Virus record (IMG/VR): IMGVR_UViG_3300013903_000020
Strand: one strand, 5' to 3'
Length of the DNA stretch: 5,816 nt
From: a virus
Taxonomy: Duplodnaviria; Heunggongvirae; Uroviricota; Caudoviricetes
A program made the position numbers and the translations under genes. Numbering within the stretch: position 1 is the stretch's first letter; the number at the start of each line of letters is the position of its first letter. Below, in pieces: positions 1-4,619 of this stretch. Below the pieces are notes generated by a model, which was not told the origin of the DNA, did not search any database, and worked only from the letters and a program-made list of their open reading frames with translations.

Positions 1-180
1 CGAACCTTCCGTGAGAAATATTCCGAGTCTCCCATTTCAGCTACTGACTGGTACTATAGATTTAGCCGCGATGATGGTAAATGTTGTAATGACCTTGAAT
101 TTTTCAGTTGCACTTGCCTGAAATGCGATCGAGCAGGTGAGTGCGAGGCCCCCCAAGAGCATGGTTACTTTTTTTATTGA
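1..180 (+). CDS. 3'-terminal fragment of an unidentified gene entering from upstream of the window (Cys-rich C-terminus ...CCNDLEFFSCTCLKCDRAGECE...)
   Basis: Frame 1 is open from base 1 to a TGA at 178-180 (59 codons) with protein-like composition and several Cys pairs. There is no in-frame start inside the window, so it is absent from the ORF track. Identity unknown. Confidence 0.3.
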   Translation, partial: RTFREKYSESPISATDWYYRFSRDDGKCCNDLEFFSCTCLKCDRAGECEAPQEHGYFFY

Positions 181-260
181 GCGCATAATTTAGTACCTAT
201 AGTGAGCAAAATTAGAACAAACATAGCAACGGCTATGTTTTATAGCATAACCTATACAAA

Positions 261-544
261 ATGAAAATGATTATCATTAACAACTTTGAGGCCCAAAACA
301 GGGATTAGTTTGTTTCCTGCTGGATGAAAGGACTCTTGGGATAGCACATGCCGCACGAAGAGCAGCATTACATGATGTTTTGTCGAATGAGCTACGAATC
401 CTGATAGAAATACGAAACAAGCTAGCACATGGACAATGGATCTATCCCTTCAATAATGAAGGAAATACTGTGGACCCTGATAAATTTAAATTAATCGATA
501 AAGAAAACTTGCAGTCACTTCAATTCAAATATTCATTAGCATAG
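261..544 (+). pseudogene. Disrupted small ORF with a HEPN-like R-x4-H motif (possible abortive-infection or toxin remnant)
   Basis: ATG at 261 opens a 15-codon frame-3 ORF (MKMIIINNFEAQNRD) ending at TAG 306-308. Frame 2 is open from 290 to TAG 542-544 and encodes ...ELRILIEIRNKLAHGQWIY..., with RNKLAH at 413-430. A single-base change in the A-run near 295-298 would fuse both parts into one ORF of about 97 aa. No Shine-Dalgarno sequence upstream of 261. Confidence 0.3.
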
Positions 545-813
545 CATTTAGCTGATGCTGTACATGATTTGGTTGTAAGTCCTACGACATTCGAACGAGA
601 TTTCGAAAGCCATTTTAAAAATTCTTTTACGTCCGCTCCTCGCTCATAACAGGCATTCACTACATTTGTCTTCATTGGCTATGCAAGTCGTAATACAAGG
701 TGGGGCAAAACTGAGACACATAAGGTCTCTCACAAAGGTCTGCAAGGCCTCACATGTATTGAGATGTTAATAAAATGTAGACTTGTAATTTTGATATAAA
801 TGGTAGATAAAAC

Positions 814-826
814 CTTTCCCCAAAAT
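814..826 (+). promoter_or_regulatory. Isolated copy of the TTCCCCAAAA motif; candidate integrase arm-type site on the far (P-arm) side of the icd segment
   Basis: CTTTCCCCAAAAT at 814-826 matches the three tandem repeats at 1175-1211 and lies about 120 bp upstream of where icd homology starts. Confidence 0.3.
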
Positions 827-911
827 AAAAACGAACGTCAATGAAATCAAACGGTTGAATAAAGTTGATTTTGGCTAATAAAAAAACAATAAAATAATTT
901 TTATCATTAAA

Positions 912-924
912 TATCAATTACTTG
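912..924 (+). promoter_or_regulatory. IHF-consensus-like site (WATCAANNNNTTR) next to the putative attachment core
   Basis: TATCAATTACTTG at 912-924 fits the IHF consensus at every specified position, in an AT-rich context about 20 bp upstream of the icd-homologous segment. Confidence 0.3.
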
Positions 925-943
925 AACTTAATGTTTTTATATA

Positions 944-1108
944 CTGCTGCGCCATATGGGCTGGACTGAAGCCGCAGACCTGATTGTTAAAGGTATGGAA
1001 GGCGCAATCAACGCGAAGACCGTAACCTATGACTTCGAACGTCTGATGGAAGGCGCTAAACTGCTGAAATGTTCAGAGTTTGGTGATGCGATCATCAAGA
1101 ATATGTAA
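944..1108 (+). pseudogene. icd: icd 3'-terminal segment (last about 54 codons of isocitrate dehydrogenase), phage-associated attachment-site copy, not a full gene
   Basis: Translation [54 protein letters not shown] matches the Icd C-terminus as I recall it. The frame is closed by TAA at 929-931 and upstream sequence is AT-rich non-icd DNA, so only the 165-bp tail is present. Confidence 0.85.
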
Positions 1109-1131
1109 TCACTACATGTGTTAAATATTGA

Positions 1132-1160
1132 AACGGGCGTATAACACGCCCGTTGTTTTA
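1132..1160 (+). terminator. Rho-independent terminator downstream of the icd segment
   Basis: Stem AACGGGCG (1132-1139), loop TATAACA, stem CGCCCGTT (1147-1154), then GTTTTAT. Sits 24 bp after the icd stop codon. Confidence 0.7.
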
Positions 1161-1174
1161 TGATGATGTAAAAT

Positions 1175-1211
1175 CTTCCCCAAAACTTTCCCCAAAACCC
1201 TTCCCCAAAAC
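1175..1211 (+). repeat. Three tandem direct repeats (C)TTCCCCAAAAC; candidate integrase arm-type binding sites (P'-arm analogue)
   Basis: CTTCCCCAAAAC (1175-1186), TTTCCCCAAAAC (1187-1198) and CCTTCCCCAAAAC (1199-1211) are head-to-tail, ending 11 bp before the int stop codon at 1222-1224. A fourth copy lies at 814-826. Confidence 0.6.
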
Positions 1212-1221
1212 TGGCTATTTT

Positions 1222-2969: not shown

Positions 2970-3279
2970 TCTTGACCTTGTGTTGTGCGGATTGATATTC
3001 AGTGGTGATATTCACCTTTATAGCGAACACCTTTACCGGTTTATCGCCAAAGTGCGGATGTGTGATTGTCTTCACTTCATATCCGTCATACGGAACATCA
3101 ATTCTGCGACTGGAATCGTCGCGCTTCGGATATCCCTTTGTGATAATCAGGCGGTCATATTCCCGGAACATAATTCGCTTATTCCAGTAGTCATTACACA
3201 AGCGATACTCTTCCGTTTTCTCTCCGCGAATCATGGCATCGAAGTATTCACTTTTAACAGCAAGTTGCAGGTTAGCCAT
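2947..3279 (-). CDS. ASCH-domain-like protein (GxKxxExR motif)
   Basis: The ORF is open to 3345, but the Met at 3277-3279 gives MANLQ... and its ATG overlaps the TGA of the upstream TraR-like gene (TGATG). IRGEKTEEYR carries the ASCH signature G-x-K-x-x-E-x-R. Confidence 0.6.
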   Translation of the reverse strand: MANLQLAVKSEYFDAMIRGEKTEEYRLCNDYWNKRIMFREYDRLIITKGYPKRDDSSRRIDVPYDGYEVKTITHPHFGDKPVKVFAIKVNITTEYQSAQHKVKNVQSDLP

Positions 3280-3500
3280 CACTTCATCCCCCTTTGTTTG
3301 CGGATAAGCTCCAGATCTTGCTGGCAACTGGCGCAAGTCCGACAACCCTGAACGGCCAGTCGTCTTCGTTCATCTATCGGATCGCCACACTCACAACAAT
3401 GAGTGGCAGATACAGCCAGGTAGTTCAGGCGGCGCATTTTTATTGCTGTGTTGCGCTGTAATTCTTCTATTTCTGATGCTGAATCAATGATGTCTGCCAT
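3279..3500 (-). CDS. TraR/DksA-family C4 zinc-finger protein
   Basis: 73-aa ORF with two CxxC pairs (C-C-E-C ... C-R-T-C) spaced as in the DksA/TraR zinc finger. Typical small early gene of lambdoid prophages. Confidence 0.85.
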   Translation of the reverse strand: MADIIDSASEIEELQRNTAIKMRRLNYLAVSATHCCECGDPIDERRRLAVQGCRTCASCQQDLELIRKQRGMK

Positions 3501-3552
3501 CTTTCATTAATCCCTGAACTGTTGGTTAATACGCTTGAGGGTGAATGCGAAC

Positions 3553-3576
3553 AATAAAAAAGGAGCCTGTAGCTCC
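3553..3576 (-). terminator. Putative rho-independent terminator for leftward transcription
   Basis: On the minus strand: GGAGC-tacag-GCTCC hairpin (plus 3562-3576) followed by TTTTTTAT (plus 3554-3561), 22 nt downstream of the stop at 3599. Stem is only 5 bp. Confidence 0.4.
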
Positions 3577-3598
3577 CTGATGATTTTGCTTTTCATGT

Positions 3599-3880
3599 TC
3601 ACCGTTCCTTAAAGACGCCGTTTAACATGCCGATCGCTAGGCTTAAATGAGTCGGTGTGAATCCCATCAGCGTTACTGTTTCGCGGTGCTTCTTCAGTAC
3701 GCTACGGCAAATGTCATCGACGTTTTTATCCGGAAACTGCTGTCTGGCTTTTTTGATTTCAGAATTAGCCTGACGGGCAATGCTGCGAAGGGCGTTTTCT
3801 TGCTGAGGTGTCACTGAACAAGCCCCATGTCGGCAAGCATAAGCACACAGAATATGAAGCCCGCTGCCAGAAAAATGCAT
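3599..3880 (-). CDS. Small hypothetical early-left protein (93 aa from ATG 3880; 71 aa if started at GTG 3814)
   Basis: ORF in the track. The first 22 residues (MHFSGSGLHILCAYACRHGACS) look non-native and the ATG lacks an SD. A GTG at 3812-3814 overlaps the TGA of a 27-codon upstream ORF (GTGA) and gives VTPQQENALRSIARQ... Confidence 0.5.
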   Translation of the reverse strand: MHFSGSGLHILCAYACRHGACSVTPQQENALRSIARQANSEIKKARQQFPDKNVDDICRSVLKKHRETVTLMGFTPTHLSLAIGMLNGVFKER

Positions 3881-3894
3881 TCAGTGGTTGTCAT
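3811..3894 (-). CDS. Candidate 27-aa hydrophobic peptide (MTTTECIFLAAGFIFCVLMLADMGLVQ), translationally coupled between two small genes
   Basis: ATG at 3892-3894 overlaps the TGA of the 63-aa gene (ATGA) and its own TGA overlaps the GTG at 3814 (GTGA). One predicted hydrophobic helix. Below the ORF-track length threshold; may be spurious. Confidence 0.2.
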   Translation of the reverse strand: MTTTECIFLAAGFIFCVLMLADMGLVQ

Positions 3895-4082
3895 ACCTGG
3901 TCTCTCTCATCTGCTTCTGCTTTCGCCACCATCATTTCCAGCTTTTGTGAAAGGGATGTGGCTAACGTATGAAATTCTTCGTCTGTTTCTACTGGTATTG
4001 GCACAAACCTGACTCCAATTTGAGCAAGGCTATGTGCCATCTCAATACTCGTTCTTAACTCAACAGGAGATGCTTTGTGCAT
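3891..4082 (-). CDS. Small hypothetical protein (63 aa), first gene of the leftward small-gene cluster
   Basis: ATG at 4080-4082 preceded by a strong SD (GGGAGG, 4 nt spacing). Acidic C-terminus and no obvious helix-turn-helix. Confidence 0.6.
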   Translation of the reverse strand: MHKASPVELRTSIEMAHSLAQIGVRFVPIPVETDEEFHTLATSLSQKLEMMVAKAEADERDQV

Positions 4083-4196
4083 ACCGCCTCCCGTTTATTA
4101 TTTATCTTCTCAGCCAGCCGCTGTGCTTTCAGTGGATTTCTGATAACAGAAAGGCCGGGAAATACCCAGCCTCGCTTTGTAACGGAGTGGACGAAA

Positions 4197-4619
4197 GTGA
4201 TCGCGCCTAATCAGGATGTCGTTGCCGCACTCATTGTGAATGAGTATCGAGCACAGGGCGGCGTCACCATCGATTTTCCTGATGATGTCAGTCGGGCACG
4301 CCAGAAGCTGTTCCGCTTCCTCGATAACAAATTCGATTCTGAAAAATACCGAAATAACGTGCGTGAACTGACCCCGGCAATTCTGGCGGTACTACCGCTG
4401 GAATATCGCGGCCACCTGGTTGAGCAGGATAGCTTCATGGCTAGGTTGGCTGAAATGGAAAAGGAACTCAGTGAGGCAAAACAGGCTGTCATTCTCAACG
4501 CACCACGCCACCAGAAATTGAAGGAAATTAGTGAAGGTATTGTGTCGATGTTTCGTGTGGACCCGGATCTGGCTGGTCCATTGATGGCGATGGTTACTAC
4601 CATGCTGGGGGCGATATGA
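4197..4619 (+). CDS. Early regulatory protein in the cII slot (possibly CII/YdaT-like), immediately upstream of the replication initiator
   Basis: The ORF is open from GTG 4077, but that start overlaps the divergent 63-aa gene and the first 40 residues look non-native. GTG 4197 has GGAG 9 nt upstream and gives 140 aa with a coiled-coil-like segment (MARLAEMEKELSEAKQ). Family not verifiable by eye. Confidence 0.5.
   Translation: MIAPNQDVVAALIVNEYRAQGGVTIDFPDDVSRARQKLFRFLDNKFDSEKYRNNVRELTPAILAVLPLEYRGHLVEQDSFMARLAEMEKELSEAKQAVILNAPRHQKLKEISEGIVSMFRVDPDLAGPLMAMVTTMLGAI

What the first reader, a model, noticed from the sequence alone, without database searches (positions are those of the whole stretch)
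3599..4082. Chain of translationally coupled small genes including a possible 27-aa hydrophobic peptide
The 63-aa gene stop overlaps an ATG (ATGA) that opens a 27-codon ORF encoding a single hydrophobic helix, whose stop in turn overlaps a GTG (GTGA) that would start a 71-aa protein. Such coupling suggests co-expression; small hydrophobic peptides in prophage early operons are often membrane-active toxins or inhibitors. The arrangement is reminiscent of the small-gene cluster in the E. coli Qin prophage dicB operon, but I cannot confirm homology by eye.
Basis: partly seen in the sequence, partly recalled or inferred. Interest (0 to 1): 0.5.

Follow-up and report, generated by a model that had tools for sequence, protein, structure and literature searches.

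The report
Overlooked 27-codon gene in lambda's exo-xis block
The flagged stretch is the well-known "exo-xis" block of a phage lambda/21-like prophage, and the 27-codon hydrophobic reading frame between orf63 and orf61 behaves like a real, translationally coupled small gene that the lambda reference annotation and the literature on this region leave out.

Summary
orf63 (3891-4082, minus strand) ends in an ATGA that starts a 27-codon ORF (3811-3894). That ORF ends in a GTGA that starts a 71-aa gene (3599-3814).

The locus is not the Qin dicB cluster. It is the lambda exo-xis block (96.7% identical to lambda), inside a phage-21-like prophage remnant at icd.

- **Conservation:** across 320 related loci the peptide MTTTECIFLAAGFIFCVLMLADMGLVQ is identical in 281, and both 4-nt overlaps are kept in 317.
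- **Selection:** recurrent polymorphisms are synonymous in the 27-codon frame (omega ~0.17, P=7e-4), as in orf61. The rival 93-aa extension frame from ATG 3880 looks neutral (omega ~1.3).
- **Mosaic variants:** one replaces orf63 with a Dam methylase, yet keeps ATGA and the small ORF. Another lacks the small ORF, and the 71-aa gene starts at the same ATG with its own Shine-Dalgarno.

So the small ORF is very probably coding, and it relays ribosomes to the 71-aa Orf61. The 93-aa and lambda 61-aa annotations are probably wrong. Membrane location rests on sequence alone, and toxicity is untested. The peptide already exists in GenBank/UniProt as "hypothetical". Interest is moderate.

The parts
4055..4201 (-). 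5'-truncated orf60a homologue (DUF1317). It overlaps the orf63 start by 28 nt, and its upstream part was lost in the prophage deletion.
   Evidence: PGAP annotation of the identical locus; alignment to lambda and phage 21.
3891..4082 (-). orf63 homologue (DUF1382, 63 aa) with a strong Shine-Dalgarno GGGAGG. Its TGA stop (3893-3891) overlaps the ATG of the small ORF.
   Evidence: Pfam PF07131, E=7.7e-31; PHROG 292; anti-SD duplex -10.3 kcal/mol.
3811..3894 (-). 27-codon ORF ('s27') encoding MTTTECIFLAAGFIFCVLMLADMGLVQ. It has one hydrophobic helix-length segment and no basic residue. ATGA overlap upstream, GTGA overlap downstream.
   Evidence: ORF list. Peptide identical in 281/320 loci. Synonymous excess in this frame only: omega ~0.17, P=7e-4. 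Kept behind a Dam methylase gene with ATGA and GGGAGG. GRAVY 1.62; best 21-residue window 2.42. Deposited as a hypothetical protein.
3599..3814 (-). True orf61 homologue, 71 aa, GTG start here (ATG in lambda, phage 21 and 254/320 loci). Predicted three-helix protein of unknown function.
   Evidence: PGAP call WP_000188870. Same start with its own GAGG Shine-Dalgarno in a mosaic variant that lacks s27. omega ~0.18. AlphaFold2 pLDDT 78.5, three helices. No significant fold match.
3815..3880 (-). 22-codon in-frame extension from ATG 3880. Stx-phage records annotate it as part of a 93-aa Orf61. It is probably not translated as such.
   Evidence: omega ~1.0-1.5 in this frame. Weakest and mis-spaced anti-SD pairing, -3.8 kcal/mol. 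Absent in the L029-type variant.
3507..3602 (-). 31-codon ORF whose GTG (ATG in lambda) overlaps the orf61 stop (GTGA/ATGA). It contains a terminator-like hairpin at 3578-3560.
   Evidence: Reported as translated in lambda (orf2313, 31 aa) according to PMC8614690. Terminator t2 in PMC4195576.
3279..3500 (-). orf73 homologue (TraR/DksA zinc-finger protein), the next gene of the operon.
   Evidence: Pfam PF01258, E=6.5e-9. Lambda Orf73 function is described in PMC9239242.

Best explanation
The finding lies in the exo-xis block of the early-left (pL) operon of a lambda/phage-21-type prophage. The order of genes is orf60a, orf63, a 27-codon ORF (s27), the real 71-aa orf61, a 31-codon ORF and orf73.

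s27 is a genuine protein-coding gene. A ribosome that terminates at the UGA of the upstream gene (orf63, or a Dam methylase in another mosaic) reinitiates on the overlapping AUG. It makes a 27-residue peptide consisting of one hydrophobic helix-length segment flanked only by acidic or polar residues. It then terminates on a UGA that overlaps the AUG/GUG of orf61. This hands ribosomes to a start that has almost no Shine-Dalgarno of its own.

Orf61 is therefore 71 aa (start at 3814), not 93 aa.

- **Shown:** the anatomy, the conservation, frame-specific purifying selection, and the shared 71-aa start in an s27-less context.
- **Inferred:** reinitiation coupling, insertion of the peptide into the inner membrane, and a role in the early lytic programme.

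In this particular prophage, pL and everything from exo to cro are deleted, so the cluster is probably silent here.
For: - **Identity of the locus:** 96.7% identical to lambda 30712-31315, and 96.7% identical to phage 21 with the same downstream gene order.
- **Conservation:** peptide identical in 281/320 loci, both overlaps kept in 317/320.
- **Polymorphism test, variants seen in at least 2 loci:**
  - s27 frame: 11 synonymous / 5 non-synonymous against 27% synonymous expected. P=7e-4, omega ~0.17.
  - orf61: omega 0.18. orf63: omega 0.48.
  - 93-aa extension frame: 3 synonymous / 8 non-synonymous, omega ~1.3, P=0.74.
- **Antisense ORF:** it shows a signal only where its wobble positions coincide with those of s27, not under orf63.
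- **Stx-phage lineage:** it differs from the window at 5 sites in s27, all synonymous there.
- **Mosaic L119 type:** homology begins exactly at the s27 ATG. The Dam stop forms ATGA with it, and a GGGAGG precedes it.
- **Mosaic L029 type:** no s27. The 71-aa gene starts at the same ATG behind GAGG.
- **Start codons:** ATG in 254 loci and GTG in 63. The A/G change is synonymous in s27.
- **RNA structure:** no stable structure, z = +1.35.
- **Hydrophobicity:** GRAVY 1.62.
Against: - There is no direct evidence of translation. A review of the lambda ribosome-profiling study lists only a 7-aa and a 31-aa extra ORF in this block, and I could not read that study itself.
- All relatives are at least ~89% identical, and many loci are clonal. 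The test rests on 12-29 variant alleles.
- s27 is absent from the L029-type mosaic (17 loci here; that variant's Orf61 cluster has 344 member sequences), so it is dispensable for orf61.
- In one genome (L010) a 14-nt deletion fuses the s27 start in frame to orf61 behind a strong Shine-Dalgarno, which shows that the long frame can be used.
- The peptide has no basic residue, which is atypical for membrane proteins.
- s27 has no family in Pfam, PHROGs, NCBIfam or the PDB.
- In this window the operon has lost its promoter.
Confidence: 0.72

Rival explanations
1. The downstream gene is the 93-aa protein that starts at ATG 3880, as annotated for phi24B vb_24B_7c and Stx2 phage II. The 27-codon frame is then an accidental overlapping ORF.
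For: - The 93-aa frame is open in every lambda-like locus, and it is the annotated form in Stx phages.
- The PHROG 303 profile spans it.
- The exact 93-aa sequence is called on at least 1000 contigs.
- L010 carries an in-frame 93-aa form behind GGAGG.
Against: - The extension frame evolves neutrally (omega 1.0-1.5), while the overlapping s27 frame is constrained.
- The common changes are A>T, V>M and G>R in the extension frame.
- ATG 3880 has no usable Shine-Dalgarno.
- The L029-type variant has the 71-aa start only.
- PGAP aa.
- Published models find residues 1-23 unreliable.
- The L010 type is absent from 5,426 complete E. coli genomes and from the phage set.
Confidence: 0.08
2. s27 is translated, but only as a relay that carries ribosomes from orf63 to the weakly initiating orf61. 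The peptide itself has no function and is degraded.
For: - The orf61 start has a very weak Shine-Dalgarno behind s27 (-3.9 to -4.7 kcal/mol), but has GAGG where s27 is absent.
- The GTG start in 63 loci argues for reinitiation.
- s27 is dispensable in one mosaic lineage.
- No family or structure match exists.
Against: - A pure relay should tolerate amino-acid changes. The observed omega is ~0.12-0.17, equal to orf61.
- The peptide is identical in 88% of loci, across lineages that differ at 3-5 synonymous sites.
- The uninterrupted hydrophobic segment is kept.
Confidence: 0.15
3. The 80-nt stretch is a non-coding spacer, a structured RNA, or is constrained by the 61-codon ORF on the opposite strand (3827-4012, +).
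For: The antisense frame whose wobble positions coincide with those of s27 also shows a synonymous excess (P~0.01).
Against: - The antisense signal is weaker than that of s27.
- The antisense signal vanishes in the half that lies under orf63 (omega 0.83-1.1).
- The RNA folds less stably than shuffled controls (z +1.35).
- No Rfam match exists.
- Variants concentrate at s27 third positions.
Confidence: 0.04

Closest known systems
Phage lambda exo-xis block (orf60a, orf63, orf61, orf73), studied by the Wegrzyn, Donaldson and Gourse laboratories
   Same: It is the same locus: 96.7% nucleotide identity to lambda 30712-31315 and the same gene order. In lambda the s27 peptide is identical, at complement(30925..31008).
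   Different: - The lambda reference and the papers I could read list no 27-codon gene.
- Lambda 'orf61' (61 aa) is a chimera created by an extra A in an A-run. The extra A is found in only 17/228 loci, which are laboratory lambda.
- Stx-phage 'orf61' is annotated as 93 aa.
E. coli K-12 Qin prophage dicB operon small genes ydfA-ydfB-ydfC
   Same: It is also a run of very small genes at the start of the early-left operon of a defective lambdoid prophage.
   Different: - No sequence similarity (best E=0.12, to YdfD).
- YdfB is acidic and soluble, not hydrophobic.
- The ydf genes do not overlap.
- No DicF RNA is present here.
Small single-helix inner-membrane proteins of enterobacteria (for example KdpF, AcrZ, MgtS, CydX); recalled from memory, not tested
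   Same: Length of 27-50 aa with one hydrophobic helix. KdpF, like s27, has no basic residue.
   Different: No sequence relationship was found. s27 is phage-borne, and its partner, if any, is unknown.
Type I toxin peptides (Hok, Ldr, Ibs, TisB, DinQ); recalled from memory
   Same: Size and hydrophobicity. Some of these are prophage-borne.
   Different: - These toxins have their own tightly repressed mRNA and an antisense RNA. s27 is an internal, translationally coupled cistron of an operon.
- No antitoxin RNA family matches.
- s27 has no basic tail.
- Toxicity is untested.

Membership tests
Lambda exo-xis block | Nucleotide homology and gene order orf60a-orf63-orf61-orf73, upstream of xis and int | tested here: met
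   96.7% identity to lambda and to phage 21 over 603 nt. Annotated neighbours agree. DUF1382, DUF1317 and TraR/DksA domains are present.
Protein-coding gene (for the 27-codon ORF) | Purifying selection in its own frame and not in overlapping frames | tested here: met
   11 synonymous / 5 non-synonymous recurrent variants against 27% synonymous expected, P=7e-4, omega ~0.17. The 93-aa extension frame gives omega ~1.3. The antisense shadow is explained.
Protein-coding gene (for the 27-codon ORF) | Start and stop codons conserved, including across different genomic contexts | tested here: met
   317/320 loci keep both overlaps. The Dam-methylase mosaic keeps ATGA and adds GGGAGG.
Protein-coding gene (for the 27-codon ORF) | Direct evidence of translation (ribosome footprints, peptide) | not testable with these tools
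   The lambda ribosome-profiling paper is not held. A review cites only 7-aa and 31-aa extra ORFs. The peptide is not found in the supplements of an EHEC Ribo-seq study.
Qin dicB-operon proteins YdfA/YdfB/YdfC | Sequence similarity to the K-12 proteins | tested here: not met
   BLASTP best E=0.12, to YdfD; weaker chance matches to YdfA, YdfC and DicB, and none to YdfB.
Qin dicB operon | DicF small RNA downstream of the small genes | tested here: not met
   No Rfam match in the window at E<=1 other than two chance hits elsewhere.
ZapA (the PGAP name given to many orf61 homologues) | Pfam PF05164 at or above the gathering score, or a ZapA-like fold | tested here: not met
   16.2 bits against a cut-off of 23.8, E=0.014. 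No ZapA among the Foldseek PDB matches, all of which have E>1.
Homeodomain-like DNA binder (proposed for Orf61 in PMC8614690) | Significant structural match to homeodomains | tested here: inconclusive
   The three-helix model has pLDDT 78.5. The Pitx2 homeodomain appears at rank 5 with E=3 and TM 0.34.
Type I toxin-antitoxin peptide | Small hydrophobic peptide | tested here: met
   27 aa, GRAVY 1.62.
Type I toxin-antitoxin peptide | Cognate antisense RNA, and toxicity on expression | not testable with these tools
   No known antitoxin RNA family matches. Toxicity needs an experiment.

The most novel reading that the evidence does not exclude
s27 is a functional inner-membrane micro-protein of lambda and Shiga-toxin phages. 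Part of what has been published as 'orf61' (and perhaps 'orf63') phenotypes would then be caused by loss or alteration of s27. Those phenotypes are the timing of lytic development, host survival and lysogenisation. The reason is that the published lambda delta-orf61 allele removes s27 from codon 13 onward, while lambda's own orf61 is already frameshifted.
Probability: 0.25. Interest if true: 0.6.

Novelty: new member of a known kind. Interest (0 to 1): 0.4.

Why it matters
Lambda is the best-studied temperate phage, and its exo-xis block influences induction of Shiga-toxin prophages.

If s27 is real, three things follow:

- **Annotation:** Orf61 is 71 aa. The 93-aa (Stx-phage) and 61-aa (lambda) forms that have been modelled and discussed in the literature are annotation or strain artefacts.
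- **Existing mutants:** they are confounded. Primer sequences in PMC4699033 show that lambda delta-orf61 deletes s27 from codon 13, and that phi24B delta-orf61 replaces its last three codons.
- **An unstudied product:** a conserved early membrane peptive has not been examined, in a region linked to blocking host replication and to the lysis-lysogeny decision.

For this particular window the matter is ordinary. The cluster sits in a promoter-less prophage remnant.

Tried and rejected
- **Qin dicB homology:** rejected.
- **Known RNA family or structured RNA:** none.
- **Family membership of s27:** only chance transmembrane-segment matches in Pfam, PHROGs, NCBIfam and the PDB.
- **Homology search with the 27-aa peptide:** For the same reason no structure prediction or HMMER representative search of s27 was possible.
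- **Distant relatives:**
  - The genome scan returned mostly laboratory-lambda contamination in unrelated assemblies.
  - Divergent DUF1382 genes (about 76-79% identity, in Salmonella-type elements) are followed directly by unrelated genes and have no s27. The small ORF is therefore confined to the lambda-type module in Escherichia and Shigella.
- **L010 as support for the 93-aa start:** on inspection it is better read as the s27 start plus a 14-nt deletion, and it is unique.
- **Antisense ORF:** rejected.
- **ZapA label:** rejected.
- **Bias control:** loci fetched with a pattern inside the ORF were excluded from the main selection test.
- **Literature:** no paper in the library contains the peptide sequence. 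The lambda ribosome-profiling paper is not held.

Full report
**What is there**

On the minus strand the window carries a tight run of small genes:

| Element | Coordinates | Notes |
|---|---|---|
| orf60a / DUF1317 | 4055-4201 | 5'-truncated |
| orf63 / DUF1382 | 3891-4082 | 63 aa |
| 27-codon ORF ('s27') | 3811-3894 | |
| 71-aa frame | 3599-3814 | extends to 93 aa from ATG 3880 |
| 31-codon ORF | 3507-3602 | |
| TraR/DksA zinc-finger gene | 3279-3500 | |
| ASCH, DUF4222, xis, int | further downstream | |

There is an ATGA at 3894-3891 and a GTGA at 3814-3811. A further GTGA joins the 71-aa gene to the 31-codon ORF.

**Where it comes from**

The stretch is 96.7% identical to phage lambda 30712-31315 (orf60a, orf63, orf61). 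It is also 96.7% identical to phage 21, and it shares phage 21's downstream gene order down to xis and int. It occurs in 3,382 of 5,426 complete E. coli genomes. This is the exo-xis block of the pL operon, which has its own literature.

It is not related to the Qin dicB operon. BLASTP against YdfA, YdfB, YdfC, DicB and YdfD gives only chance matches. YdfB is acidic and soluble. No DicF RNA is present.

**Annotation is inconsistent**

- PGAP and the phage 21 record call the 71-aa form.
- Stx-phage records aa from the 3880-equivalent ATG.
- The lambda reference calls a 61-aa 'orf61' that starts inside orf63. The alignment shows that this is a chimera caused by one extra A in an A-run.
- Only 17 of 228 loci have the extra A. 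These are laboratory lambda, often as contamination of unrelated assemblies.
- None of the annotated records I opened carries the 27-codon ORF.
- The exact peptide is nevertheless deposited as a hypothetical protein from some E. coli genomes (UniProt A0A0A2SGE8), with a gene called on 981 contigs.

**Is the 27-codon frame coding?**

I collected 339 loci anchored on a conserved stretch inside orf61. Of these, 320 have a homologous small ORF.

*Conservation.* The peptide MTTTECIFLAAGFIFCVLMLADMGLVQ is identical in 281 of the 320. The upstream ATGA and the downstream ATGA (254 loci) or GTGA (63 loci) are both intact in 317. The A/G difference that changes the orf61 start from ATG to GTG is synonymous in s27 (CAA/CAG).

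*Selection test.* I counted distinct variant alleles and excluded loci that had been fetched with a pattern inside the ORF. The table gives variants seen in at least two loci.

| Frame | Synonymous / non-synonymous | Expected synonymous | omega | P |
|---|---|---|---|---|
| s27 | 11 / 5 | 27% | ~0.17 | 7e-4 |
| orf61 (71 aa) | 16 / 7 | 29% | 0.18 | 7.4e-5 |
| orf63 | 11 / 12 | 31% | 0.48 | 0.062 |
| 93-aa extension | 3 / 8 | 32% | ~1.3 | 0.74 |

*All six frames.* Only the s27 frame and the antisense frame whose wobble positions coincide with it show an excess of synonymous changes. The antisense 61-codon ORF shows none in the half that lies under orf63, so its signal is a shadow of s27.

*Lineage comparison.* The Stx-phage lineage differs from the window at five sites in s27. 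All five are synonymous in s27, and the three that fall inside the extension frame change the amino acid there.

*RNA structure.* The RNA is less structured than shuffled controls (z +1.35).

**Mosaic variants give independent evidence**

- **Dam-methylase context (L119 type):** orf63 is replaced by a Dam methylase gene. Homology to the window begins exactly at the s27 ATG. The methylase stop again forms ATGA with it, and a strong GGGAGG precedes it.
- **s27-less context (L029 type, 17 loci here; that variant's Orf61 cluster has 344 member sequences):** a 250-aa gene replaces orf63 and s27. The 71-aa gene starts at the same ATG, now with its own GAGG. This fixes the orf61 start at 3814. It also shows that s27 is not obligatory for orf61.
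- **L010 (Escherichia sp. E1V33):** it keeps the boundary sequence GGAGGCGGCATGACAA, but a 14-nt deletion fuses that start in frame to orf61. It is unique among everything searched. I read it as a mutational fusion, not as support for ATG 3880.

**Likely mechanism**

- orf63 has a strong Shine-Dalgarno (-10.3 kcal/mol).
- s27 behind orf63 has a weak one (-5.6).
- The orf61 start behind s27 has a weaker one still (-3.9 to -4.7).
- ATG 3880 has none at a usable distance.

The simplest reading is termination-reinitiation. Ribosomes finishing orf63 restart on the overlapping AUG, translate s27, and restart again on the AUG/GUG of orf61. This is an inference from the anatomy.

The peptide has a 21-residue hydrophobic core (mean Kyte-Doolittle 2.42), two cysteines, one Glu, one Asp and no basic residue. 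Membrane insertion is plausible but untested. Toxicity is pure conjecture.

The 71-aa Orf61 is predicted to be a three-helix protein (pLDDT 78.5). It has no significant structural neighbour. The PGAP name 'ZapA' fails the Pfam threshold.

**State of this particular prophage**

The truncated orf60a abuts a 5'-truncated ydaT-like gene, and the replication genes O and P follow. Everything from exo through pL, cI and cro is missing, and no promoter-like site lies upstream. The cluster is therefore probably not expressed in this host. An independent deletion with different end points exists in another strain.

**Relation to the literature**

- A review states that ribosome profiling of lambda confirmed orf60a, orf63, orf61 and orf73, and added a 7-aa and a 31-aa ORF.
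- The 31-aa ORF is 3507-3602.
- The 7-aa ORF is most likely MKDGRHH at 3484-3507. This assignment is my inference.
- s27 is not mentioned there. Its footprints would have been credited to the annotated lambda orf61, which covers it in another frame.
- The same review notes that residues 1-23 of the 93-aa phi24B Orf61 model are unreliable, which fits their not belonging to the protein.
- Primer sequences show that the published lambda delta-orf61 allele deletes s27 from codon 13 into orf61. The phi24B allele replaces s27 codons 25-27. Those phenotypes therefore cannot be assigned to Orf61 alone.

**Verdict**

- The coding status of the 27-codon ORF and the 3814 start are well supported by comparative evidence, but translation has not been shown.
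- The dicB comparison is wrong.
- The toxin idea is untested.
- The thing is a modest addition to a known block: a conserved, uncharacterised small hydrophobic gene, already present in databases as 'hypothetical'. Its practical consequences are for annotation and for the interpretation of existing mutants.

Noticed in passing
window 4201-4209 (junction); 4209-4619 (+): The prophage is a deletion remnant. The truncated orf60a is joined to a 5'-truncated ydaT-like (cII-analogue) gene, so exo, bet, gam, kil, cIII, N, pL, cI and cro are missing. An independent deletion with other end points (into a cro-like regulator) exists in NZ_CP092452.
   Followed up: partly
window 63-1159: The DNA left of int is not intact icd. 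It is sitA-linked island DNA plus a 3' icd fragment (945-1107). In genomes that carry the identical prophage, this DNA lies about 20 kb away at the far end of the icd island. That suggests a tandem or secondary icd attachment arrangement in the source genome.
   Followed up: partly
window 3739-3744 (T-run on +; A-run in orf61); L002 (lambda) about 1957-1963: The lambda reference has 7 A where 205 of 228 other loci have 6. The lambda 61-aa 'orf61' is thus a frameshift chimera that is specific to laboratory lambda.
   Followed up: yes
window 3507-3602 (-), hairpin 3578-3560; 3484-3507 (-): A 31-codon ORF is coupled by GTGA/ATGA to the orf61 stop and contains a terminator-like hairpin (the published predicted t2). 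A 7-codon ORF (MKDGRHH) shares one base with the 31-codon ORF's stop (TAATG) and overlaps the orf73 start. These two probably correspond to the two extra ORFs reported from lambda ribosome profiling.
   Followed up: partly
L010 1435-1500 (Escherichia sp. E1V33): This is a unique variant. A DGQHR-domain gene stop overlaps the s27-type ATG behind GGAGG, and a 14-nt deletion fuses that start in frame to orf61, giving a 93-aa chimera.
   Followed up: yes
window 1170-1212: Three direct copies of TTCCCCAAAAC, spaced 12-13 nt apart, lie immediately beside the integrase gene end. They may be integrase arm-type or att-site repeats.
   Followed up: no
L116 1201-1604 and L112-L115 (divergent DUF1382 loci): In Salmonella/E. 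coli elements on contigs of about 50-100 kb, DUF1382 genes of about 76-79% identity are followed by unrelated genes (an Ea22-like protein, or another 71-aa protein). In all but one of the seven loci (L112) the next gene follows directly, through an ATGA overlap. No small hydrophobic ORF is present.
   Followed up: partly
proteins P0079, P0081, P0088: Several deposited 89-aa proteins are orf63-s27 fusions caused by single-base changes near the ATGA overlap. They are probably sequencing errors or rare mutants.
   Followed up: no
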